DNA of 64,000 bases from an uncultured archaeon (GCA_964525635.1 CAZGJX010000003.1:39465-103464), one strand, 5' to 3'; numbered from the stretch's first letter, positions 4,995 through 47,052 are shown. A program made the numbers and translations. Notes: generated by a model not told the origin, from the sequence alone.

Positions 4995-6491
4995 TTGGAT
5001 TTTGACATACATATAGAAAAAATTGGAGAATTAGATAATATCTTTAATTTTTATAAATATCTCATCGAAAAATATGATTTTAAGAAGCATGTCCTATTAG
5101 AATCCTCATCAGGAAACTCAAACGAAACCTTATATAGTTTTATTGCTCTTGAACCTGATTTTATGTTTGAAATTAATGGGAAGAACTATAAAATTTTCGA
5201 TATCACTTCAGAAAGAGGTGAAAATATCAAAAATTATGTTGAATCTAAAGATCCCGCTAAGGAAATACCACGTAATCCCCTACCATTTAATGATAATGTC
5301 GATTATAATATGATTGCTTTAGATACCTTAAGTCATCTTACCCCATATTCTAAATTACCTTTTACTGAACTATTTCCAAGAAATATATTTTTTGGAGGAG
5401 TAGTAGGGGTGATCTCTTATGATATAGTAGCACCATATGTTGGTTATCAATCTAATAGTGAATTTCCAGATATTCTCATGGGACTTTATACAAAAGTACT
5501 TGTATATTCGCACAAATCTAATGCTTTATTTATGATAGATAATAGCCTTGATGATTATTCAAGGGACAAGGACATTAGATATCAATTAGAATTGTTTAAA
5601 AGAAATAATATTAAAAATAAAAAGAAAGATATTCCATTAGATCTCGACGATATAGATGAAAGTATGTTTAGATCGAATACTTCTAAATCAGCTCACGAAC
5701 AAATGGTGAACAAGACTAAAGAGCATATATATGCTGGCGATATAATTCAAGCGGTTATCTCTAGAAGACTATATACTGAAAGTAAAGTAAATCCTATTAA
5801 TTTTTATGAAATACTTAGAGAGCTTAATCCCTCGAATTATATGTATAATATCAATTTCAATTATATTAAAATAATTGGTAGTAGCCCCGAAGCTCTTATA
5901 ACAAAAAATAAAGATGTTCTATCAACTATGCCAATAGCAGGAACGATAAGAAGAAGTAAGGATCCAGAAGAAGACTTGAATTTAGAGAGAGAATTACTAG
6001 GTAATATAAAGGAGAGGGCCGAGCACCTCATGCTAGTAGATTTGGCAAGGAATGACTTAGCTAAGGTCTCATATCCTGGAACTGTCGAAACATTTGATTT
6101 TATGACGATTCAGAAATACCAAAAAGTTCAACATATCGTAAGCAAAGTTAGAAGTAAGACACCTCTTGATGGTTTTCAAGCATTAAAAAGTGTTTTTCCT
6201 GCAGGGACATTATCAGGAGCACCCAAATTAGAAGCTATGAAAATAATCCAAGAACTTGAAACTGAAAATCGCTCATTTTATGGTGGAGCAATTGGCTATT
6301 TCAGTTTTAATGGGGATCTAGCAATGGCAATTGCCATTAGAACATTATTTGGTCGGGGAAATAAATATTTTGCTCAAGCAGGGGGTGGAATTGTCGCAGA
6401 CTCCCAACCAGAACAAGAATTCCAAGAAACTTATAACAAATTATACAGTGTTTTGAAATCAATTAAGATAGCGGAGGCAAGAGAACAATGA
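4995..6491 (+). CDS. trpE: anthranilate synthase component I
   Basis: Has LVDLARNDL, GTLSGAPK, FYGGAIGY and AGGGIVADS. It uses a TTG start 10 nt after an AGAGGT SD. Confidence 0.92.
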   Translation: MDFDIHIEKIGELDNIFNFYKYLIEKYDFKKHVLLESSSGNSNETLYSFIALEPDFMFEINGKNYKIFDITSERGENIKNYVESKDPAKEIPRNPLPFNDNVDYNMIALDTLSHLTPYSKLPFTELFPRNIFFGGVVGVISYDIVAPYVGYQSNSEFPDILMGLYTKVLVYSHKSNALFMIDNSLDDYSRDKDIRYQLELFKRNNIKNKKKDIPLDLDDIDESMFRSNTSKSAHEQMVNKTKEHIYAGDIIQAVISRRLYTESKVNPINFYEILRELNPSNYMYNINFNYIKIIGSSPEALITKNKDVLSTMPIAGTIRRSKDPEEDLNLERELLGNIKERAEHLMLVDLARNDLAKVSYPGTVETFDFMTIQKYQKVQHIVSKVRSKTPLDGFQALKSVFPAGTLSGAPKLEAMKIIQELETENRSFYGGAIGYFSFNGDLAMAIAIRTLFGRGNKYFAQAGGGIVADSQPEQEFQETYNKLYSVLKSIKIAEAREQ

Positions 6492-7081
6492 ATATTTTAT
6501 TTATAAATAATTACGATAGCTTTGTTTATAATTTAGTTAATTATTTCTGTCAGTTGGCTCCAGACGCTAGAATCATGATCGAAGACAATAATATCTCTAT
6601 AGAAAAAGTTGAAGAATATTCTATTGATAAAATTATAATATCACCTGGCCCCGGTCATCCCAAATACGATACAGGAACTGTCATTCCTATTATTAAACAC
6701 TATCATAAAGAAATTCCGATCTTAGGGATTTGTCTTGGACATCAAGCAATTGTTGAAGCTTTTGGTGATAAGCCCGATTTGGAATATATTGGACGAGCTA
6801 AAGTAGGACCTATGCATGGAAAACAATCAAAGATATTTCATGATCAAGAAAAAATCTATAAGGATATACCTAATCCAATCCAAGTTATTCGCTATCATTC
6901 TCTTGCAGCTAAAGGGGACATTCTTCCTCAAGACCTTAAAATCACAGCTACTGCAGATGATGGAACAATTATGGGGGTTCGACATAAACAATTTCCAGTT
7001 GAAGGGGTTCAGTTTCATCCCGAATCAATACAAATGAAGCCCCATGGAATGCAAATTTTAAAAAATTTCTTAGATATATGA
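6488..7081 (+). CDS. trpG: anthranilate synthase component II (glutamine amidotransferase)
   Basis: Has the GICLGHQ nucleophile elbow and FHPES. There is a 4-nt ATGA overlap with trpE. Confidence 0.92.
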   Translation: MNILFINNYDSFVYNLVNYFCQLAPDARIMIEDNNISIEKVEEYSIDKIIISPGPGHPKYDTGTVIPIIKHYHKEIPILGICLGHQAIVEAFGDKPDLEYIGRAKVGPMHGKQSKIFHDQEKIYKDIPNPIQVIRYHSLAAKGDILPQDLKITATADDGTIMGVRHKQFPVEGVQFHPESIQMKPHGMQILKNFLDI

Positions 7082-7083
7082 AA

Positions 7084-9855
7084 TTAACTAAGAGAAAGTT
7101 CAAGTAATTCTCTACCTAACTTAGTAAGAGAATATTTATATTGTCTTTTATTATTACTTAAGGTAGAAGGATTATAAGCAATTATTCTTTTTAAATATCT
7201 TTTCTTATAAAGATCTCGTATCATCCATTCAAGGCTCTTAATATCATCCAAGTAATTTAACTTTAATAGATCTAAAGCAAAATAAGATCCTTTGCTAAAT
7301 TCTAGTAAAATTCTTCGCTGAAAATCTGTTAGATAATTGAAACCTTCACGGTCACCTAACTTTTTTCTATATTGAATCTCATCTTCATAGTCTTCTACAA
7401 AAAATTTTCGATGATCAAATTTCGGAATGGGAGGTAATTTTTTTCCTGTTTTTTCTTCAATCTGTCTTATTATTTTTTCTTGCATTTCTTCAAGCTCAAT
7501 TTTTTTCCATTCTCCATTTCGCATTTCATATCCAAGCACTATTAATAATATATATTGTTTCTCACAAAATTCAATTTTGAACTGATCAATTTCTAATTGT
7601 CTTTCATGATCCTCTTCCTTTTTTTGCCATTCTGGCACTCTAATATAATGTTGCCTTCCTTGTCGCTCAAAACCTACTAATAATTCAAGATTAAAACCAT
7701 CTAAATGCATTCTAGTAATATCAAAATTGATTTTATTTGGATCATATCTCGCTAAGCCTTCTCTACCTTCGATATTTAAAACTATTTGAATTAGTGGTGT
7801 CTCAAGAAATTTAATTTGTTTCTTATACAAGTAAGAAAATATTCTTTCCATATAACATCTGAATACTTTCTCATAATAACCCTTTGAGCAATGAGGACAC
7901 CATGACCTTCTTTTTTTCACTTTATATATCCGCTTTTTAAAAATTTTCTTACACTTTCCACATCGCCAATTATGTAGTTTATCGCTTCCCTTATATATAT
8001 TCGATAAAAATTCACCAGGTGCTCCCGTTTTTTCTAAACCCACTTCATAAGCCAATTTTCTTAATCCCTTAATAGTAGGCGTAACTTTATGAGCACACTT
8101 AGAACACCAACTTCTTCTCGATTTCACTTTGTTAGGTGTCATAGTAAACTCATGTTTGCAAGCACCACATTTCCATCTAAGTTTGGATGTCGCTCCTTTA
8201 TATTCATCAGACAAACAAAATCCAGGGACTTTAGTTTTTTCTAGCCCAACTTCATATGCCAAAATTCTCATATCTTCAATAGTCTGTTCTTTACCAGCAC
8301 ATCTAGGACACCATGACCTTTTCGATTTTATATCATTTGGTGTCATAAAAAATTTATTTTCACATTTTCCACAATACCATTCTAATTCTGTGGAAGAATT
8401 AATATACTTATTGGATAAACACCGTCCAGAAACACCCGTTTTCTCCATTCCAACATCATAAGCTAATTCATGCATATCCTCAATTGTTATTTGTTTATGT
8501 AAAAAATGTGGATTATTACTACATCTAGGACACCACTCCTTTCTAATTTTCACTTTATCAGGGTTTTTTGAGAATACATATCTGCAAGCTCCACATCGCC
8601 ATTTTAATTCAGTTTTCATATTTATATAATTTTTTGATAAACACTCACCTTCAATCCCTGTTTTTTCTATACCTACCACACGGGCTAGTTCTTGCATATC
8701 TAATATAGAATATTTCTTAATTTCTTTAACCCCTCTTACTTTTAATTTAATGTTAACTTCGTTTGCTAATTGTTGCAATAAATTAAAAGAATCCTCAGGG
8801 ATAGATTTACTTTGATAGATAATATCTCCAATTCTGGTATGAATATAATCACTAATAGATTTGTTTGTCATACTTAACTCTAACCTCAATTTATCTATTA
8901 AAGACTTGGTCTTTTCCTTATCAAGTATGAAATATTTTTTTATAGGGAATGTCGATTTAGTATAAATTCCATCATAAATCGTTTCGCTCTTCTTATAATC
9001 TTCTTCATTCATAAAATTATAAAATTCATAACCACACTGACCACATTTCCATAGAAGTTTTGTTTTATTATTAAAATATTCTTTGGATAAACATTTTTTT
9101 GGAACTCCAGTTTTTTCTAATCCCAAATCATGGGCTAATTTAATCATATCTCTTATTTTTTCCTCTTTTTTCTTTTTATAAATTATAAATTTCTTTAATT
9201 CATCTCTAATTACTTCATAGAAATGAGAGAGATTATTTGAATTCCATTTTTCTTTTATGATGATAAAAATATGAGAGATGATCCATTTTAAATATACTTC
9301 AACATCAGATTTATAAAAAGGATCTTTTTTTATTTTTTCTTGAAACTTAGCATGATATGTATTAAATTCTTCTGTTCTCAACTTTTTGTAAAGATTTTCA
9401 AGATAAATTCTTTGAATCTTCTTTTCTGTAATTGGCAAAATAAAATCTTCTAAATTTTTTAATACTTCACTTTTTAATTTACTTTTTTTTATTTTTTGCT
9501 TTAAATGTCTTTCCACATCTCCGATTATATCATATATGAGGCGAGAGATTATAATGACGAGATTTTGTTTAAATAATTTTGGAAAATCAGGGTCATAATA
9601 AACCCTCTCGATTGGATATTTATATGTTTTTCTTATTTCTTGTTCTTTATTGTTAATTCTTTTATCCTCATATTTTTCCTCAGAATGAATATTATCTTGA
9701 ACAAAAATATTTTTTATCTCAAATTTCGTTCCACAATATTGACAAAATGCGAATTCATCGGCTATTGGATTATTTTCTATATCTTTTATCTGTAATCTAA
9801 TACCACAATTTTCACAAAATAAGGAGTTCCCATTCTTGTTTTTTGACTCATTCAT
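7084..9855 (-). CDS. 923-aa multi-zinc-ribbon protein with a candidate restriction-endonuclease-like domain and a C-terminal winged-helix-like tail
   Basis: The N-terminus has CENCG..CQYCG. Five copies follow of a module of about 65 aa (LAxxVGxEKTGxxGxCLSxxY..LxWxCGxC..F...P..VK...SWCPxC). Then comes MHLDGFNLELLVGFERQGRQHY, and the protein ends in ..YKYSLTKLGRELLEL. Confidence 0.6.
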   Translation of the reverse strand: MNESKNKNGNSLFCENCGIRLQIKDIENNPIADEFAFCQYCGTKFEIKNIFVQDNIHSEEKYEDKRINNKEQEIRKTYKYPIERVYYDPDFPKLFKQNLVIIISRLIYDIIGDVERHLKQKIKKSKLKSEVLKNLEDFILPITEKKIQRIYLENLYKKLRTEEFNTYHAKFQEKIKKDPFYKSDVEVYLKWIISHIFIIIKEKWNSNNLSHFYEVIRDELKKFIIYKKKKEEKIRDMIKLAHDLGLEKTGVPKKCLSKEYFNNKTKLLWKCGQCGYEFYNFMNEEDYKKSETIYDGIYTKSTFPIKKYFILDKEKTKSLIDKLRLELSMTNKSISDYIHTRIGDIIYQSKSIPEDSFNLLQQLANEVNIKLKVRGVKEIKKYSILDMQELARVVGIEKTGIEGECLSKNYINMKTELKWRCGACRYVFSKNPDKVKIRKEWCPRCSNNPHFLHKQITIEDMHELAYDVGMEKTGVSGRCLSNKYINSSTELEWYCGKCENKFFMTPNDIKSKRSWCPRCAGKEQTIEDMRILAYEVGLEKTKVPGFCLSDEYKGATSKLRWKCGACKHEFTMTPNKVKSRRSWCSKCAHKVTPTIKGLRKLAYEVGLEKTGAPGEFLSNIYKGSDKLHNWRCGKCKKIFKKRIYKVKKRRSWCPHCSKGYYEKVFRCYMERIFSYLYKKQIKFLETPLIQIVLNIEGREGLARYDPNKINFDITRMHLDGFNLELLVGFERQGRQHYIRVPEWQKKEEDHERQLEIDQFKIEFCEKQYILLIVLGYEMRNGEWKKIELEEMQEKIIRQIEEKTGKKLPPIPKFDHRKFFVEDYEDEIQYRKKLGDREGFNYLTDFQRRILLEFSKGSYFALDLLKLNYLDDIKSLEWMIRDLYKKRYLKRIIAYNPSTLSNNKRQYKYSLTKLGRELLELSLS
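7885..8709 (-). repeat. four tandem, diverged coding repeats (about 195 nt each) of the helix + CxxC..CxxC module
   Basis: Protein residues 383-657 of the 923-aa ORF form four near-collinear modules. A degenerate fifth copy lies at 9022-9156. Confidence 0.8.
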
Positions 9856-10104: not shown

Positions 10105-12309
10105 ATGAATCATATTAAGAACGATCTAATAGAAAATTGTATTTTACATGGTAAATTTCATGAAGCACTTAATAGTCTTAACTCAATTGAAAGAAGAAGA
10201 GTTTTATCTGATAATGAGTTGCTAATGAAAAAATTAACTAAGATTTATATTTGTATTGATAAAGGAGATTTTAAGAAAGGTAGATCAATTGCTGATGAGA
10301 TGATTAAGCTTTCACAAGAAAAAAATAATATATTGAGGGAGATTGATGGCCTTATCGGTAAGGTTGAAAATATGCTTTGTTTAGTTTTATATAATGATGC
10401 GCTTCAATTATTAAAAAAAGCAGAATCGATATTAATTAAAGCTCAAAATATATCAATAAAAGAATTTAAACGGAAAAAAGCATATATAATCTATCTTAAA
10501 GGAAGAATTTGTCAAGATACCCATAAAATCAATGAAGGAATAAATTATTTTAAGGAAAGTCTTAAAATAAGAAAAGATATAAATGATAGGATAGGTATAA
10601 TCTGGACTTTATTAAATCTAGGTATATTAACCGTAGCTATTGGAGAATTTCAAAATGCAGAAAAATATATTACCAAAAGTTTAAATCTTGCTGAAGAATT
10701 CAATATTGAGGCTGCAATTATTTGGAGTTTGATTCATTTAGGGTGGATTAAATATCACAGAAGAGAACTAGATCTTCTAATGGTTTATGCCCAAAAATGT
10801 CTTTTGATTTGTAAATCACAAAATTTTAAGTATTCATTAGCTTATTGTTATGATCTTATTGGACATTATCACCTCATTAAAGGAAATTTAAATGACGCTT
10901 TACATAATTTTGAAATAAGTTTAAATTTAAGATTAGAAGAAGGATATAGATATTCATTACCACAATCGTATTATAGTATTGGAGAAGTATATAGTCAGAA
11001 AGGTGAACTTAGAGAGAGTTTAAAATATTATCACAAAATTATAGATATTCCCTTAATTGATGAGAAAGAATTCTTTACACCAGTTTATTTAAGTACAATG
11101 GGTAAAATCTATGGTGAACTCGGTGATTTTCCTAAAGCTAAAAAATATTTATCATCTGCTTTAGACTTATTTAAAAAAAACAAAATGTTAACCATTCACT
11201 TCCAAAATTTCACTATGTCAATTGCTAAAACTTATCATTTTTTAATTGTTCTTTCAATACGGAATAATGAACTCGAGAATATAAATAATTACTTAGAGGA
11301 TTTACATCAAATAAGTCAGGAGCACCCAAATCTTAAATATATTAGCCAAATATATAAATTAGATAAAGCTATAATATTAAAAATAAGTAATCGTGTTAAA
11401 ATTCGAATGAAAGCAGCCAATATTTTTAAAAAACTTTCTGAAGAAAAAATAATTGATCATGAAATTACAATTGAATCTATGACAAATTTATGCGAACTTT
11501 TGATATATGAATTAGAATTGACAGGAAATGAGGATATACTTATAGAGATAAAGGATATTTCTAATAAATTACTTAAAATAGCAGAAGCGCAGTATCTATA
11601 TAATTTAATGGTCGAAATATATTTATTTAAAGCTAAAATATCATTATTAGAGTTAGATCTTAATAAGGTACATGATTTTCTATCAAAAGGTCAAAGAATA
11701 GCATTGAATTTTGATTTAAAATTATTATTAAAAAGAATTTCCAGTGAATATGATTCATTACTAGTTAATAAAGATAAATGGGAGGAAATGATTAAAAAGC
11801 AAATCCCATTACAAAAGCGAGTGAATTATTCAAGATATGAATTTTTATTTTCTAGTATGGTTCGAACTAAAATCAAAAAGTCAATAGAACTTCCAGAATT
11901 GCCTTATTATTTTATAACTCTCAGTAATATCGATGGATACTGTTTATATGAGAAGAATCTCCAAGAGAAATTAAATATAGAGGGAGATTTTATAGCAGGA
12001 TTTATTTCAACTATAAATCTATTTGGTAAAGAAGCTTTCTCTTCCTTAGATTCAATTAACCGAATTAAACATGGAGATTTTTTTATAATTCTACAGTCTA
12101 AGGAAAATTTTTTATTTGGTTATGTATTTAAAGGTCAATCTTATTCTGCAATAACTAAATTAGATCTTTTCATTAAAAAATTAACAGAATTTAATGATAT
12201 ATTCAAAAAATTGTATTATTCTTTACAGAGCCATCTTGAATTATCAGAAGAAACTAAAATATCAATAGATAATTTAGTTAATGAGATTTTTATACAAGAT
12301 AATAAATAG
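10105..12309 (+). CDS. TPR-repeat protein with a C-terminal longin/roadblock-like alpha/beta domain
   Basis: Shows repeated 34-aa TPR-like periodicity (..AYIIYLKGRI..,..LLNLGIL..,..YDLIGHYHL..). The C-terminal 140 aa follow a beta-beta-alpha-beta-beta-alpha pattern (YFITLSNIDGYCLYEKN..FIAGFISTINLFGKEAF..IKHGDFFIILQ..FLFGYVFKG). Confidence 0.7.
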   Translation: MNHIKNDLIENCILHGKFHEALNSLNSIERRRVLSDNELLMKKLTKIYICIDKGDFKKGRSIADEMIKLSQEKNNILREIDGLIGKVENMLCLVLYNDALQLLKKAESILIKAQNISIKEFKRKKAYIIYLKGRICQDTHKINEGINYFKESLKIRKDINDRIGIIWTLLNLGILTVAIGEFQNAEKYITKSLNLAEEFNIEAAIIWSLIHLGWIKYHRRELDLLMVYAQKCLLICKSQNFKYSLAYCYDLIGHYHLIKGNLNDALHNFEISLNLRLEEGYRYSLPQSYYSIGEVYSQKGELRESLKYYHKIIDIPLIDEKEFFTPVYLSTMGKIYGELGDFPKAKKYLSSALDLFKKNKMLTIHFQNFTMSIAKTYHFLIVLSIRNNELENINNYLEDLHQISQEHPNLKYISQIYKLDKAIILKISNRVKIRMKAANIFKKLSEEKIIDHEITIESMTNLCELLIYELELTGNEDILIEIKDISNKLLKIAEAQYLYNLMVEIYLFKAKISLLELDLNKVHDFLSKGQRIALNFDLKLLLKRISSEYDSLLVNKDKWEEMIKKQIPLQKRVNYSRYEFLFSSMVRTKIKKSIELPELPYYFITLSNIDGYCLYEKNLQEKLNIEGDFIAGFISTINLFGKEAFSSLDSINRIKHGDFFIILQSKENFLFGYVFKGQSYSAITKLDLFIKKLTEFNDIFKKLYYSLQSHLELSEETKISIDNLVNEIFIQDNK

Positions 12310-12481
12310 AACTTCTTTGATTATATATTGAAGCAGTAATTTTGTATATATTTTTTAAGACTATATCTTTGTAGGGAATATAAAACTGAAAAAAAAAGAT
12401 TCAAAATTATTTGTTATAAAAAAATATATTTTACTAATGATAATTTAATTTTTACAAAACTAATAAACATATAGCTATAAG

Positions 12482-14677
12482 ATGGATGATAATCAGATAG
12501 AAAAGTATATTTCAATTGGAAAATATGAAGATGCACTAAATAACCTCAAGTTAATTGAGAAAGAGAGAATTTTATCAACTGATGAAGATTTATTAAAAAA
12601 ATATGTATTATCTTTTATTTCTCTTGATAAAGGAGATTTTGAGAAAGGAATAAGAATTGCTGATAAACTTATAAAGGAAGCCTATGAAGAAAATAATATT
12701 TTAGGGGAGATTAATGGTATAATTGCAAAGACCGAAAATACTAGTACCTTAGGGCTATTTAAAGAATCGCTTAAATTAATAGAGGAGGGCGAATTAATCC
12801 TTAAAAATTGTAAAAATATTTTCCCAGTTGTTAAAAAACAAAAACAAGCTTATCTAATTTATTTAAAAGGAAGAATATATCGAGATACTCATTATATTTT
12901 TGATGCAATAAAATTTTTAAAAAAAAGTTATAAATTAAGAAAAGAAATAAATGATAAAGTTGGAATGATGTGGTCTTTATTAAATTTGGCCTCCATCATT
13001 AATGTTAATGGTAATTTTAAAAGTGCAGAAAGATATTTTAATGAAAGTCTAACAATAGCAGAAGAATTAAATATTGAGGAGGGAATAACATGGAATTTAA
13101 TTTATTTTGGTTGGTTAAAGTATCATCAAAGAGATCTAACTAAAGCAATTTCTTATGCTAAAAGATGTCTCTCTATTTGTGAACCAAAAAATTATAATTA
13201 TCCAAATACAAGATGTTATGATCTTATCGGACATTGTTATCTTTTAAAAGGAAAATTAAACACAGCTTTACTTTATTTTGAGAAAAGCCTGAATATAAGA
13301 GAAATTGAAGGATATAAACAGATGCTACCAGTATCATATTATTCTATTGGATTAGTTTATTGCCAGAAAGGAGAATTTAAACGAAGTTTAAGTTATTATG
13401 AAAAAACTTTAGAATTATTAGATCTTGAAGTAAGAGAACTGGTAATACCTGTGTATTTAAACGCAATTGGTAAGGTTTATGGTGAAATAAATAATTTCCA
13501 AGCTGCAAAAGAACATTTACTAGAAGCTTTAAATATATTAGAAAAGAATGAAATACCATTGTTTCAATTTTTAAACTTTAACGTCTCTATTACATCTACA
13601 TTACATAATTTAATTTTACTCTCCGTGAATAATAATGATCTTAAGAATGTTAAAAATTACTTAGAAAAAATACATAAAATAAGTATGGATAATCCGGATA
13701 TTAAGCAATTTGATCATCTTTATCATTTAGATAAAGCTATAATTTTAAAATCAAAAAATCGTTTAATGGATAAGATGGAAGCAGTAAATATTCTTGAAAA
13801 TATAATAAAAGAAGAAATTATAGATCATGAAATAACAGTAGAGGCTATGAAAAATTTATGCGAAATTTTATTATATGAATTAGAATTATCGGGAGATAAA
13901 GATATTCTACGAGAAATAGAGGCCCTTTCAGAAAGATTACTTGAAATTAGTAGATCAGAATATTTATATGATTTATTAGCTGAAACTTATTTCTTTAAAG
14001 CAAAAATATCCTTATTAAATTTAGAGACTCAAAAAGCACGTTTATTATTAACAAAAGCACAGAATATTGCAAATGAGCATGATTTAATAAGATTAGCATC
14101 CAAGATATCAAATGAGCACGATTCGCTTTTAAAAAATCTTGATGAATGGGAAATAAAAATTAAACAATCTGAATCTTTAAAGGATATATTGCATAATAAA
14201 AAAGATGATTTTCTTTTTATAAAAAAAGACTTATCCGATAATAATAAAGAATCAAAGAATTATGATATTCCTGTCTATTTCATTATTATTAATAATATAA
14301 ATGCTGAATATTTATATAATAAAGCATTTCAAAATATTAATATTGATAATGCGAGCCTTATAGCAGGATATATATCAGCAATTAATATATTTGGGAAAGA
14401 AACCTTTTCATCCTCAGGTACGATCTCTCGAATTAAACATGGAGAATATCTAACAATTCTTCAATTAAAGAAGGAATTTTTATTTGGATATGTCTATAAA
14501 GGATATTCTTATTCCGCTATCTCTAAATTAAATAACTTTATTCAATCTTTGAGTAAAGCAACGAATGATCTTGAAAATATTACTATAGATTTTGAAAAAT
14601 ATCTTAAACTTCCAGAAGGTATAAGTATAACAATTAATAATTTAGTAAATGAAATTTTCTTGGAAAACAAAAATTGA
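12482..14677 (+). CDS. TPR-repeat protein with a C-terminal longin/roadblock-like domain (tandem paralog of 10105-12309)
   Basis: It is collinear with the upstream paralog over its full length. It has the same C-terminal core (LIAGYISAINIFGKETFSS..IKHGEYLTILQ..FLFGYVYKG) and the same terminal I.I.NLVNEIF motif. Confidence 0.7.
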   Translation: MDDNQIEKYISIGKYEDALNNLKLIEKERILSTDEDLLKKYVLSFISLDKGDFEKGIRIADKLIKEAYEENNILGEINGIIAKTENTSTLGLFKESLKLIEEGELILKNCKNIFPVVKKQKQAYLIYLKGRIYRDTHYIFDAIKFLKKSYKLRKEINDKVGMMWSLLNLASIINVNGNFKSAERYFNESLTIAEELNIEEGITWNLIYFGWLKYHQRDLTKAISYAKRCLSICEPKNYNYPNTRCYDLIGHCYLLKGKLNTALLYFEKSLNIREIEGYKQMLPVSYYSIGLVYCQKGEFKRSLSYYEKTLELLDLEVRELVIPVYLNAIGKVYGEINNFQAAKEHLLEALNILEKNEIPLFQFLNFNVSITSTLHNLILLSVNNNDLKNVKNYLEKIHKISMDNPDIKQFDHLYHLDKAIILKSKNRLMDKMEAVNILENIIKEEIIDHEITVEAMKNLCEILLYELELSGDKDILREIEALSERLLEISRSEYLYDLLAETYFFKAKISLLNLETQKARLLLTKAQNIANEHDLIRLASKISNEHDSLLKNLDEWEIKIKQSESLKDILHNKKDDFLFIKKDLSDNNKESKNYDIPVYFIIINNINAEYLYNKAFQNINIDNASLIAGYISAINIFGKETFSSSGTISRIKHGEYLTILQLKKEFLFGYVYKGYSYSAISKLNNFIQSLSKATNDLENITIDFEKYLKLPEGISITINNLVNEIFLENKN

Positions 14678-46701: not shown

Positions 46702-47052
46702 TTATTTTTTTTTTAAAAAATCAGGTATTATTCCTTTAAGTCCCAAACTTTTCAAGATTGTTTCTTTTATATCCATTTGTAGCTTAAATTCAGACATTTG
46801 TTTTACAGTATTCTCCAAAGAAGTTGAAAAGTTAAGACTCATATCTTTGATTGTTTTCGACATAAGATCAAATGATTCCTTCATAGTGATATTGGTATCT
46901 TGAAGTACAGAACTCATCTTATTAACAGAATTAGAAATTTCTGAACTAAAAGTAATTAAATTTACTGAGAGGTTTTTTATTTGTTCTGCTATAGCTTTCA
47001 TCTCAGTATTCATTTTAACAAGTTGTTCGTTAAGATCTTTTATTCCCAACAT
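46702..47052 (-). CDS. small coiled-coil protein, unknown function
   Basis: A 116-aa ORF with a heptad-like pattern. I prefer it over the overlapping plus-strand ORF 46667-46903, which looks like a shadow ORF. Confidence 0.35.
   Translation of the reverse strand: MLGIKDLNEQLVKMNTEMKAIAEQIKNLSVNLITFSSEISNSVNKMSSVLQDTNITMKESFDLMSKTIKDMSLNFSTSLENTVKQMSEFKLQMDIKETILKSLGLKGIIPDFLKKK

What the first reader, a model, noticed from the sequence alone, without database searches (positions are those of the whole stretch)
7084..9855. 923-aa array of Zn-ribbon modules fused to a nuclease-like core and a winged helix, convergent on the trp operon
The architecture read from the sequence has four parts. First, an N-terminal CxxC..CxxC ribbon. 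Second, an alpha-helical region. Third, five copies (one degenerate) of a ~65-aa module, LAxxVGxEKTGxxGxCLSxxY(x5-6)LxWxCGxC(x3)F(x3)PxxVKxxxSWCPxC. Fourth, MHLDGFNLELLVGFERQGRQHY...IDQFKIEFCEKQYILLIVLGY, followed by a basic wHTH-like tail. The module and the D...E.Q(G).QHY segment resemble, from memory, the Zn-ribbon plus restriction-endonuclease-like proteins scattered in phages, giant viruses and bacteria. Five tandem ribbons in one chain is an unusual expansion. This is not a housekeeping architecture. It could be a selfish or defence nuclease, or a multivalent nucleic-acid binder.
Basis: partly seen in the sequence, partly recalled or inferred. Interest (0 to 1): 0.55.

Follow-up and report, generated by a model that had tools for sequence, protein, structure and literature searches.

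The report
Zinc-module homing-type nuclease beside trpG
This 923-residue protein of a Loki-type Asgard archaeon is a modular DNA-cutting enzyme of a large, mostly viral and bacterial "selfish nuclease" family, and it sits at a spot just after the tryptophan gene trpG where related genomes repeatedly gain and lose foreign DNA.

Summary
ORF 7084-9855 (-) encodes 923 aa: an N-terminal CxxC..CxxC ribbon, a helical region, one degenerate and four complete ~65-aa Zn modules (Pfam DUF4379, 2e-16), a nuclease-like core and a winged-helix tail. Its stop codon lies 2 bp from the trpG stop.

The core folds confidently (pLDDT 95). It carries the Vsr/EDxHD-type residues E662, D719, E730, Q732, H736 and D757, invariant or conservatively replaced in homologs. 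Its fold matches giant-virus "restriction endonuclease" and phage DUF559 models. Matches to solved Vsr are weak.

The core family is very large: 32,003 cluster representatives. Bacterial members carry up to 14 Zn-module matches, so five is not unusual. Zn-module arrays joined to a Vsr-like nuclease were described in 2025 as a homing-endonuclease group.

What is new is the context:
- In 9 of 38 related Lokiarchaeial loci, a core-family gene is the first gene after trpG and convergent on it.
- That gene carries either a Zn-module array or an unrelated helical-repeat array.
- 17 loci carry displaced copies of the trpG 3' end.
- One near-identical pair of loci shows a 5.2-kb insertion flanked by a 45-bp trpG repeat.

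Best reading: a free-standing homing-type endonuclease, a new archaeal variant of a known kind. Activity and target site are untested.

The parts
7084..9855 (-). Whole ORF, 923 aa plus stop codon
   Evidence: Listed. An identical protein, P0001, is on public contigs of 108 kb and 22.6 kb.
9154..9855 (-). N-terminal module, residues 1-234: a CxxC..CxxC zinc ribbon (residues 14-41, window 9733-9816) followed by a helical region of unknown family
   Evidence: Cysteine positions. There are only sub-threshold Zn-ribbon Pfam hits (Zn_Ribbon_1 at 1.6e-4, below cut-off). The module is 69% identical to the N-terminus of P0008, whose remainder is unrelated. Dedicated searches found no other homolog.
9001..9153 (-). 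Module R1, residues 235-285: a degenerate Zn module that keeps the first CxxC (271-274) and lacks the second
   Evidence: It matches R2-R5 at 42-58% identity over about 40-55 residues.
8704..9000 (-). Insert between R1 and R2, residues 286-384. By eye it resembles a helix-turn-helix, but this is unconfirmed
   Evidence: No Pfam or PDB sequence match. The segment is also present in P0004.
7888..8703 (-). Four complete Zn modules: R2 (residues 385-445), R3 (458-519), R4 (525-587) and R5 (594-656). Each has CxxC..CxxC
   Evidence: DUF4379 at 2e-16 in 4 stretches. Alignment. All 16 cysteines are kept in three orthologs, and each module type is recognisable by position. The array is 73-74% identical in register between orthologs, against 46-54% out of register.
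7456..7887 (-). Nuclease-like core, residues 657-800, with E662, D719, E730, Q732, H736, D757 and K760
   Evidence: Invariant columns. AF2 model with pLDDT 95.3 and pTM 0.87. Foldseek against BFVD gives 30 hits at E<=1e-3, TMq up to 0.71, to giant-virus 'restriction endonuclease' and phage 'DUF559' models. The top PDB hit is Vsr but is weak (E 0.67). Residue spacing matches Vsr and I-Bth0305I as given in PMC3239194.
7327..7455 (-). Linker, residues 801-843, containing the conserved KLPxIPKFD motif
   Evidence: Conserved across both array lineages. Part of it has low confidence in the model: residues 822-839 have pLDDT below 50.
7087..7326 (-). C-terminal winged helix, residues 844-923
   Evidence: AF2 topology is H-b-H-H-b-b-H with block pLDDT mostly 77-91, one block at 62. 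All 50 top Foldseek PDB hits are winged-helix proteins, nearly all MarR/PadR/HxlR-type regulators, with prob mostly about 1 and E 0.01-0.15. No Pfam match.
6488..7081 (+). trpG (anthranilate synthase glutaminase subunit), the conserved neighbour and candidate target or anchor
   Evidence: A core-family gene directly follows trpG in 9 of 38 evaluable related loci.

Best explanation
The gene encodes a free-standing, homing-type site-specific DNA endonuclease. It belongs to the family that joins arrays of DUF4379/CapR-like zinc modules to a Vsr/EDxHD-like (restriction-endonuclease-fold) catalytic domain.

Inferred mechanism:
- The four complete zinc modules, each with its own conserved identity, lie along a long asymmetric DNA site. 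The winged-helix tail probably helps.
- The core cuts using D719, E730 and D757 as metal ligands and H736 as general base.
- The break is repaired from a copy that carries the gene. This keeps the gene, and sometimes hitch-hiking cargo, at the 3' end of trpG in Lokiarchaeial genomes.

Shown here: the domain anatomy, the conserved active-site residues, family membership at the level of modules and core, the conserved position after trpG, the patchy presence, and the duplicated trpG ends around insertions in relatives.

Inferred, not shown: DNA cleavage, the identity of the target, and that this particular copy is still mobile.
For: Anatomy and family:
- DUF4379 above threshold.
- phrog_559 at 4.7e-41 covers modules plus core, and phrog_681 scores 3.2e-20.
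- The core of bacterial homolog P0005 also hits PHROGs labelled 'homing endonuclease' and 'intron encoded nuclease'.
- Among the best 97 core-family representatives, 79 carry DUF4379 and 48 carry CapR. A few carry NUMOD3 or the homing-endonuclease-associated repeat.
- PMC12350094 describes 3-5 CapR/DUF4379-like domains plus a Vsr/EDxHD-like nuclease as a large unrecognised homing-endonuclease group.
- CapR-type modules bind DNA in a cysteine-dependent way (PMC8096241).

Active site:
- E662, D719, E730, H736 and D757 are invariant. K760 and R666 are nearly invariant.
- The spacings D+11, D+13 and D+17 match Vsr D51/F62/H64/H69 and I-Bth0305I D196/N208/H213.

Fold: the model is confident and matches viral restriction-endonuclease-like and DUF559 models.

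Locus behaviour:
- Orthologs or remnants sit directly after trpG, convergent on it, in L002, L043, L053 and L004.
- A second lineage has the same core, and in L021 the same tail, but a different repeat array. It occupies the same spot in L021, L024, L027, L036 and L042.
- Only 9 of 38 evaluable loci have such a gene, and they are scattered across TrpG clusters.
- L004 holds a truncated 230-aa remnant.
- In L027 the gene is bracketed by trpG and a copy of its last ~23 codons.
- L042 differs from L041 (93% identical flanks) by a 5.2-kb insertion. The insertion begins at the end of trpG, starts with the nuclease gene, and is flanked by a ~45-bp trpG direct repeat. No recombinase-like ORF was recognised in it from the ORF list, whose products were not scanned against Pfam.
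- The layout 'gene | homing-endonuclease ORF | C-terminal duplicate of the gene' is known from fungal mitochondria (PMC6279837).
Against: - No cleavage data exist, and no target site has been defined.
- The window itself has no displaced trpG fragment. Mobility is therefore shown only for the sister lineage (L027, L042) and by patchiness and decay for this lineage.
- dN/dS is about 0.14-0.18. Synonymous divergence between orthologs (pS 0.66-0.68) is about as deep as for trpG and trpE. This looks like long vertical co-inheritance under purifying selection, which a purely selfish gene is not expected to sustain without continuing transfer.
- Links to solved Vsr-type structures are weak: Foldseek E 0.67, profile against PDB sequences without hits, hhalign against E. 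coli Vsr not significant.
- The extra N-terminal module and the winged-helix tail are not features of described homing endonucleases of this group.
- Many loci have trpG fragments and cargo but no nuclease gene, so another agent could create the hot spot.
Confidence: 0.5

Rival explanations
1. A domesticated descendant of such a nuclease now serves the host. It would act as a DNA-binding regulator or a maintenance/repair nuclease tied to the trp locus, using the winged helix and the Zn array for operator-like binding. The precedent is CapR, a homing-endonuclease DNA-binding domain turned repressor.
For: - Purifying selection (dN/dS 0.14-0.18) and synonymous divergence as deep as the neighbouring trp genes.
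- The position beside trpG is conserved over 37-67% protein identity.
- The tail is a MarR/PadR-like winged helix typical of regulators.
- The CapR precedent.
- No trpG duplicate flanks this copy.
Against: - The gene is present in only about a quarter of related loci and is absent from close relatives. That is odd for a trp regulator.
- All catalytic residues are invariant, which a pure binder would not need.
- L004 shows a decaying copy.
- The array type and the N-terminus are swapped between genomes.
Confidence: 0.22
2. A defence or inter-element competition nuclease carried as cargo of a variable genomic island that happens to integrate at the trpG 3' end. It would cut invading DNA rather than promote its own spread.
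For: - The region after trpG is a variable island with toxin-antitoxin pairs (PIN-, ParE- and antitoxin-like ORFs, judged by eye) and a possible restriction-modification cluster in L021.
- The core has a restriction-endonuclease fold.
- One bacterial homolog, P0029, is fused to a ResIII/SWI2-SNF2 helicase domain.
Against: - No PADLOC model matches.
- The gene is always the first gene, 2-72 bp from the trpG stop and in the same orientation, in both array lineages. That points to a cis relationship with the trpG end rather than random cargo.
- A long multi-module array suggests one long specific site rather than broad targeting.
Confidence: 0.13
3. A catalytically inert multivalent nucleic-acid binder, serving as a scaffold or repressor, with a fossil nuclease domain.
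For: - CapR itself is a non-cutting binder derived from such proteins.
- Q732 replaces the His or Asn found at this position in Vsr and I-Bth0305I.
Against: - E662, D719, E730, H736, D757 and K760 are all retained in every Lokiarchaeial copy with a full core, and across 97 distant representatives.
- Q, H or N at position 732 is the family norm.
- The core is the best-predicted part of the protein.
Confidence: 0.07

Closest known systems
CapR/DUF4379-array homing endonucleases with a Vsr/EDxHD-like C-terminal nuclease (phage group I/II intron ORFs; PMC12350094)
   Same: Several ~60-65-aa Cys-rich DUF4379/CapR-like modules in tandem are followed by a ~100-140-aa restriction-fold nuclease with the E..D..H..D residue set. 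PHROG families of this type match across modules plus core.
   Different: - It is free-standing in an archaeal chromosome, not intron-encoded. No Rfam family, intron families included, reaches its gathering score in the window.
- The modules use four Cys (CxxC..CxxC) and carry a 7-residue 'xEKTGxx' insertion. Bacterial modules use C..H..CxxC.
- The window protein does not hit the CapR Pfam model itself.
- It has an extra N-terminal Zn-ribbon/helical module, a ~100-aa insert and a C-terminal winged helix.
- The core has a ~25-residue helical insert.
I-Bth0305I / EDxHD family and Vsr mismatch endonuclease (PDB 3R3P, 1VSR; PMC3239194)
   Same: The composite active-site pattern and spacing correspond: E662/D719/E730/Q732/H736/D757 against Vsr E25/D51/(F62 position)/H64/H69/D97 and I-Bth0305I E170/D196/acidic/N208/H213/D222. 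Vsr is the top PDB fold hit. As in I-Bth0305I, the DNA-binding modules are N-terminal to the nuclease.
   Different: - No significant sequence or profile similarity to Vsr, and only a weak fold score (E 0.67).
- The DNA-binding part is a Zn-module array, not NUMOD/HTH.
- Q stands in place of His/Asn at the H64 position.
- A nearly invariant Lys (K760) follows the last Asp.
Giant-virus and phage 'restriction endonuclease' / 'Uvr/REP helicase' / DUF559 / zinc-ribbon proteins (for example Marseillevirus, Pithovirus, Klosneuvirus, ascovirus 25.6 kDa protein; Lausannevirus 4xDUF4379 + REase, PMC5513546)
   Same: The core fold is the same (Foldseek E 4e-6 to 8e-4, TMq 0.44-0.71). DUF4379 modules are often attached. 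The core also occurs on 38 jumbo-phage and giant-virus contigs.
   Different: The viral proteins lack the N-terminal module and the winged-helix tail. Identity is only 19-30%. None has been characterised biochemically as far as these tools show.
Free-standing homing endonuclease ORFs at 3' ends of fungal mitochondrial genes, with C-terminal gene duplicates (atp6, cob; PMC6279837)
   Same: The layout is the same: conserved gene, then endonuclease ORF(s), then a displaced partial copy of the gene's C-terminal end.
   Different: The nuclease families differ (GIY-YIG and LAGLIDADG there). Those are organelle genomes. Here the displaced copy is seen in sister loci (L027, L042, L004), not in the window.
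CapR of Vibrio cholerae PLE (PMC8096241)
   Same: A Cys4 zinc module related to homing-endonuclease DNA-binding domains. DNA binding requires the cysteines.
   Different: CapR is a single module without a nuclease and acts as a repressor. Here four to five modules are fused to an intact nuclease core.

Membership tests
DUF4379 / CapR-type treble-clef zinc module | Match to Pfam PF14311 (DUF4379) above its gathering score | tested here: met
   60.4 bits against a cut-off of 24.5, E 2e-16, 4 stretches.
DUF4379 / CapR-type treble-clef zinc module | Match to Pfam PF21817 (CapR homology domain) | tested here: not met
   No CapR hit for the window protein at E<=1. Bacterial homologs hit it strongly (P0005 at 4.6e-41), and 48 of 97 core-family representatives hit it.
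DUF4379 / CapR-type treble-clef zinc module | Four conserved metal ligands per module, kept in orthologs | tested here: met
   CxxC..CxxC in R2-R5. All 16 Cys are kept in P0002, P0003 and P0004, and the two modules of P0182 also keep them. The ligand set is C4 rather than the bacterial C,H,C,C.
DUF4379 / CapR-type treble-clef zinc module | Zinc-dependent sequence-specific DNA binding | not testable with these tools
   Shown only for CapR itself, in PMC8096241.
EDxHD / Vsr-like homing endonucleases | Composite active-site residues E, D, (acidic), H/N, H, D with Vsr-like spacing | tested here: met
   E662, D719, E730, Q732, H736 and D757. All are invariant except 732, which is Q/H/N. Spacing was compared with the residue numbers in PMC3239194.
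EDxHD / Vsr-like homing endonucleases | Vsr-like restriction-endonuclease fold | tested here: inconclusive
   The confident model has an a-b-b-b-a-b type topology. The top PDB hit is Vsr 1vsr but at E 0.67, prob 0.54, TM 0.36-0.39. The next hits are mostly PD-(D/E)xK cap-snatching nucleases. Hits to predicted viral 'restriction endonuclease' and 'DUF559' models are significant.
EDxHD / Vsr-like homing endonucleases | Detectable sequence or profile homology to Vsr, DUF559 or I-Bth0305I | tested here: not met
   Profile against PDB sequences gave no relevant hit. hhalign against E. coli Vsr gave prob 0.16. Pfam gave only sub-threshold DUF2726 hits. UniRef labels one short relative 'DUF559 domain-containing'.
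EDxHD / Vsr-like homing endonucleases | Cleaves the gene-less allele next to its own insertion site | not testable with these tools
   Requires biochemistry.
Homing endonuclease genes in general | Presence/absence polymorphism at a fixed site in a conserved gene, with decayed copies | tested here: met
   9 of 38 loci are occupied, scattered over TrpG clusters. There is a truncated remnant in L004. The L042/L041 insertion has a 45-bp trpG repeat. L027 has the gene between trpG and a trpG fragment. For the window's own lineage, only patchiness and the remnant are seen.
Homing endonuclease genes in general | Residence in a self-splicing intron or intein | tested here: not met
   It is a free-standing ORF between trpG and a TPR gene. 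No Rfam family reaches its gathering score in the window.
MarR/PadR-like winged-helix regulators | Winged helix-turn-helix fold | tested here: met
   Residues 844-923 are predicted as H-b-H-H-b-b-H. The top 50 Foldseek PDB hits are all winged-helix proteins, nearly all MarR/PadR/HxlR-type regulators, with prob mostly about 1.
MarR/PadR-like winged-helix regulators | Sequence membership in a Pfam wHTH family | tested here: not met
   Only Replic_Relax at E 0.11-0.13, below cut-off.
Anti-phage defence systems (PADLOC) | Match to a model of a known or candidate defence protein | tested here: not met
   No family matched for the window protein, P0005 or P0008.
Integrase-mobilised integrative elements (considered for the trpG hot spot) | Tyrosine or serine recombinase gene inside the insertion | tested here: inconclusive
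   The ORFs in the L042 insertion are the nuclease-like gene, two dehydrogenase/epimerase-like ORFs and a 102-aa ORF. None looked like a recombinase, but they were not all scanned against Pfam, and most loci are short contigs.

The most novel reading that the evidence does not exclude
The Zn-module array may be a natural, register-conserved modular DNA reader, in effect a native 'zinc-finger nuclease'. Together with the Vsr-like core it could drive integrase-free, nuclease-mediated insertion of itself and of cargo genes into the 3' end of trpG in Asgard archaea. That would create the hot spot marked by stacked trpG-end duplicates. Interchangeable DNA-binding arrays (Zn modules or helical repeats) on one core-plus-winged-helix chassis would retarget or diversify it.
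Probability: 0.15. Interest if true: 0.7.

Novelty: new variant of a known kind. Interest (0 to 1): 0.42.

Why it matters
The protein class itself is common, and was recently recognised as a homing-endonuclease group, so the architecture is not a surprise. Three things would matter if confirmed.

1. It would be a member of this group tied to a defined chromosomal site in Asgard archaea; I found no such case in the papers searched, and little is known about what moves DNA in these organisms.

2. The same nuclease-plus-winged-helix chassis carries two unrelated DNA-binding arrays at one locus, and module numbers of 2, 4 and 4+1 occur among orthologs. This gives a natural series for learning how such arrays read DNA, which is of interest for designing nucleases.

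3. The trpG 3' end in Lokiarchaeia behaves as a recurrent insertion site with stacked displaced gene ends and no obvious recombinase. That makes a nuclease-driven insertion mechanism directly testable.

Tried and rejected
Searches that found nothing useful:
- tblastn of residues 590-800 against 50,697 phage records: no match.
- Profile of the core against PDB sequences: only non-significant circovirus Rep and RadA hits.
- hhalign of the core profile against E. coli Vsr: not significant.
- Pfam on the isolated core of 28 and of 10 relatives: only sub-threshold DUF2726 and Tox-REase-5.
- Pfam, PDB-sequence and homolog searches for the N-terminal module (1-234) and the 286-384 insert: nothing. 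A TFIIB-like reading of the N-terminus (Zn_Ribbon_TF at 1.1e-3, below cut-off) was dropped for lack of support.
- Rfam at gathering thresholds on the whole window: no hit.
- PADLOC: no hit.
- A displaced trpG fragment in the window: none at protein or DNA level. The only find was an 18-bp inverted match at 46841-46858, which I regard as chance.

Ideas rejected or tempered:
- 'Five modules is an unusual expansion' is rejected.
- The PHROG label 'HNH endonuclease' for phrog_559 is rejected as a description, because no HNH-type Pfam hit or motif is present.
- My first thought that the trp adjacency was a coincidence of close relatedness is rejected. The far side of the gene differs between genomes while the trpG side is constant.
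- A test for co-conversion of the trpG 3' end was considered but not run. About 80 nt is too short to be informative.

One alignment (A2) contained a typing error in row 2. It was replaced by A5 and A8 for all later steps. A2 was used only to seed the genome scan.
Full report

Yes. The minus-strand ORF 7084..9855 starts with ATG and encodes 923 aa. The window is AT-rich, 22-32% G+C.

- CxxC at residues 14-17 and 38-41.
- One lone CxxC at 271-274, which marks module R1. The second pair is missing.
- Four modules with CxxC..CxxC: R2 (385-445), R3 (458-519), R4 (525-587) and R5 (594-656).

Pfam DUF4379, 'probable treble clef zinc finger', matches at 2e-16 in four stretches, well above its cut-off. 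The five modules align with one another and with bacterial modules. The archaeal modules have four Cys and a 7-residue 'xEKTGxx' insertion, whereas the bacterial ones use C..H..CxxC.

All 16 Cys of R2-R5 are kept in orthologs P0002, P0003 and P0004, and each module type is recognisable by position. The array is 73-74% identical in register between orthologs, against 46-54% out of register.

They have no detectable family.

**2. The nuclease-like core (residues 657-800)**

I aligned the core with 27 homologs. E662, D719, G720, E730, H736 and D757 are invariant. R666, G733 and K760 are nearly so. Position 732 is Q, H or N. The same columns are invariant among 97 distant representatives and in all Lokiarchaeial copies with a full core.

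AlphaFold2 gives a very confident model, with pLDDT 95.3 and pTM 0.87. The topology is helix, strand, a lineage-specific helical insert, two strands, a long helix, three strands, helix.

Fold comparisons:
- Against solved structures nothing is significant. The best hit is Vsr (1vsr, E 0.67, prob 0.54, TM 0.36-0.39). The next hits are mostly PD-(D/E)xK cap-snatching nucleases, and the Vsr-DNA complex also appears.
- Against predicted viral structures there are 30 hits at E<=1e-3, with TMq up to 0.71. They include Marseillevirus and Pithovirus 'restriction endonuclease', Klosneuvirus 'zinc-ribbon domain-containing protein', ascovirus and iridovirus 'Uvr/REP helicase', a phage 'DUF559 domain-containing protein' (8e-5) and, just above that cut-off, an Enterococcus phage 'homing endonuclease' (3e-3).

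Sequence-profile links to Vsr are absent, and Pfam does not cover the core.

The active-site pattern nevertheless corresponds residue for residue to the one defined for Vsr and I-Bth0305I (PMC3239194). Vsr E25/D51/position 62/H64/H69/D97 and I-Bth0305I E170/D196/acidic/N208/H213/D222 correspond here to E662/D719/E730/Q732/H736/D757. The offsets from the first Asp are the same: +11, +13 and +17/18.

I conclude that this is a restriction-endonuclease-fold domain of the Vsr/EDxHD type. Fold-level membership rests on predicted rather than solved structures.

**3. The tail and the N-terminus**

A second model, of core plus tail (pLDDT 84), shows residues 844-923 as helix-strand-helix-helix-hairpin-helix. 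All 50 top PDB hits are winged-helix proteins, nearly all MarR/PadR/HxlR-type regulators, with prob mostly near 1 and E 0.01-0.15. The 'winged-helix tail' is therefore supported, although no Pfam family claims it.

The N-terminal 234 residues, a Zn ribbon plus helices, have only sub-threshold ribbon hits. Their single relative is the N-terminus of P0008 at 69% identity.

**4. How common is this kind of protein?**

- The core profile finds 32,003 cluster representatives at E<=1e-3 among 1.84 billion proteins. 8,983 score at or below 1e-10.
- Of the best 97, 79 carry DUF4379 and 48 carry CapR. A few carry NUMOD3, the homing-endonuclease-associated repeat or HTH domains.
- Bacterial homologs have 12-14 DUF4379 stretches in one chain, so five modules is modest.
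- PHROGs places modules plus core in phrog_559 (4.7e-41) and phrog_681. The core of a bacterial homolog also hits 'homing endonuclease' and 'intron encoded nuclease' PHROGs. The 'HNH' label of phrog_559 is a misnomer for this protein.

The literature agrees:
- CapR is a domesticated homing-endonuclease DNA-binding zinc module whose cysteines are needed for DNA binding (PMC8096241).
- Phage intron ORFs with 3-5 CapR/DUF4379-like domains plus a Vsr/EDxHD-like nuclease were described in 2025 as a large unrecognised homing-endonuclease group (PMC12350094).
- Marseilleviruses have 4xDUF4379 plus a restriction endonuclease domain (PMC5513546).

**5. Organism**

The gene's closest relatives and the neighbouring trp genes come from Lokiarchaeial (Promethearchaeota) metagenome bins and Loki's Castle sediment contigs. 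One syntenic contig carries actin and Arf-like GTPase genes.

**6. The locus is the informative part**

The gene ends 2 bp from the trpG stop.

Orthologs of the window's lineage sit in the same place and orientation:
- P0002 in L002.
- L043.
- P0182 in L053. It has only the R4- and R5-type modules and overlaps trpG by 4 bp.
- A 230-aa core-plus-tail remnant in a Promethearchaeota bin (L004). Its N-terminal array is gone, and a vestige of the first helix lies outside the ORF.

The far flank differs between genomes: TPR genes here, other ORFs elsewhere.

A scan with TrpG returned 45 related loci. Together with loci fetched earlier, 38 have a complete trpG 3' end and at least 700 bp downstream:
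- Nine have a core-family gene as the first downstream gene.
- Four of these are of the Zn-array type. Five have the same core behind an unrelated array of ~60-aa helical repeats. In one of the five, L021, the same winged-helix tail follows.
- Occupied and empty loci are interleaved on a TrpG clustering.

Seventeen loci carry one to three extra, same-strand, diverged copies of the trpG 3' end. Most start at codons ~169-180 (EGVQFHPES..) and run to the stop codon. Some contain internal stops.

Two cases define insertions:
- In L027 the order is trpG, nuclease gene, trpG fragment.
- L042 and L041 share 93% identical flanks. L042 has a 5.2-kb insertion that begins at the end of trpG, opens with the nuclease gene and is bracketed by a ~45-bp direct repeat of trpG codons ~181-195. 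I saw no recombinase-like ORF inside it.

The same layout of gene, endonuclease ORFs and C-terminal duplicate of the gene is known around free-standing homing endonucleases in fungal mitochondria (PMC6279837).

Other Promethearchaeota proteins with Zn modules plus core but no tail sit at unrelated sites. One lies next to a LAGLIDADG-like ORF. The core also occurs on 38 jumbo-phage and giant-virus contigs.

**7. Mechanism**

The best-supported reading is a free-standing homing-type endonuclease. The Zn array, and probably the winged helix, would read a long site. The Vsr-like core would cut. Repair from an occupied allele would keep the gene at the trpG end.

This is inferred. Several points count against a purely selfish gene:
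- The window has no displaced trpG fragment.
- dN/dS is 0.14-0.18.
- Synonymous divergence is as deep as in trpG and trpE. That indicates long co-inheritance under selection.
- Many loci have fragments and cargo but no nuclease gene.

The rivals are a domesticated regulator or host nuclease, a defence nuclease carried as island cargo (no PADLOC hit), and an inert binder. The invariant catalytic residues make the last unlikely.

**8. Verdict**

This is a new archaeal variant of a known kind. It has C4 modules with an insertion, an extra N-terminal module, a winged-helix tail, and a fixed position at the trpG 3' end with swappable arrays.

Interest is moderate. The protein class is common, but the trpG hot spot and the array swapping give a concrete, testable system.

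Noticed in passing
L015 8591-10132; L045 379-2846; L030 1679-4592; L009 2211-8553 (related Lokiarchaeial loci): The region after trpG is a variable island. Small cassettes hold antitoxin-like plus PIN-like ORFs or ParE-like ORFs (judged by eye), and large cargo genes also occur. Each unit ends in a diverged, same-strand copy of the trpG 3' end, with up to three copies in a row. No recombinase-like ORF was noticed.
   Followed up: partly
window 10105-14677; L001 11131-13686: Two tandem ~730-aa TPR-containing paralogs (48% identical) follow the gene. Two further paralogs (45% identical) lie beyond the left edge of the window, on the other side of the trp operon. The block of trp operon plus nuclease gene is therefore embedded in a TPR paralog array.
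   Followed up: no
L003 632-3310 (protein P0008): An 892-aa protein shares only the N-terminal 230 residues (69% identity) with the window protein. It continues with ~60-aa helical repeats and an uncharacterised C-terminus. It is convergent on trpB rather than trpG.
   Followed up: partly
L002 5695-10525: In a syntenic Lokiarchaeial contig the trp operon is interrupted. An actin-family gene lies between trpB and trpA. An Arf/Ras-like GTPase and four unannotated ORFs lie between trpA and trpE.
   Followed up: no
L050 6350-11302: In a Promethearchaeota genome (GCA_019058315.1), a tail-less Zn-module nuclease (P0189) is followed by a LAGLIDADG_3-like ORF. After that comes a 2766-aa ORF with DEAD/ResIII/Helicase_C hits and a Cas1 hit.
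   Followed up: no
window 7079-7086: The stop codons of trpG (+) and of the nuclease gene (-) are separated by 2 bp. In L053 the two genes overlap by 4 bp. Convergent transcripts would overlap, and there is no room for separate terminators.
   Followed up: no
window 46841-46858: An 18-bp exact inverted match to an internal trpG segment (6819-6836), blastn-short E 2.9e-4, lies in an intergenic stretch. It is probably chance in AT-rich DNA.
   Followed up: no
L004 2282-2865: The Promethearchaeota bin AMARA_1S has a second, frameshifted, near full-length trpG copy about 6 kb from the intact one. The two bracket the nuclease remnant, an adjacent 164-aa / 116-aa ORF pair that looks by eye like a PIN toxin and its antitoxin, and an 880-aa TPR-like ORF.
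   Followed up: partly
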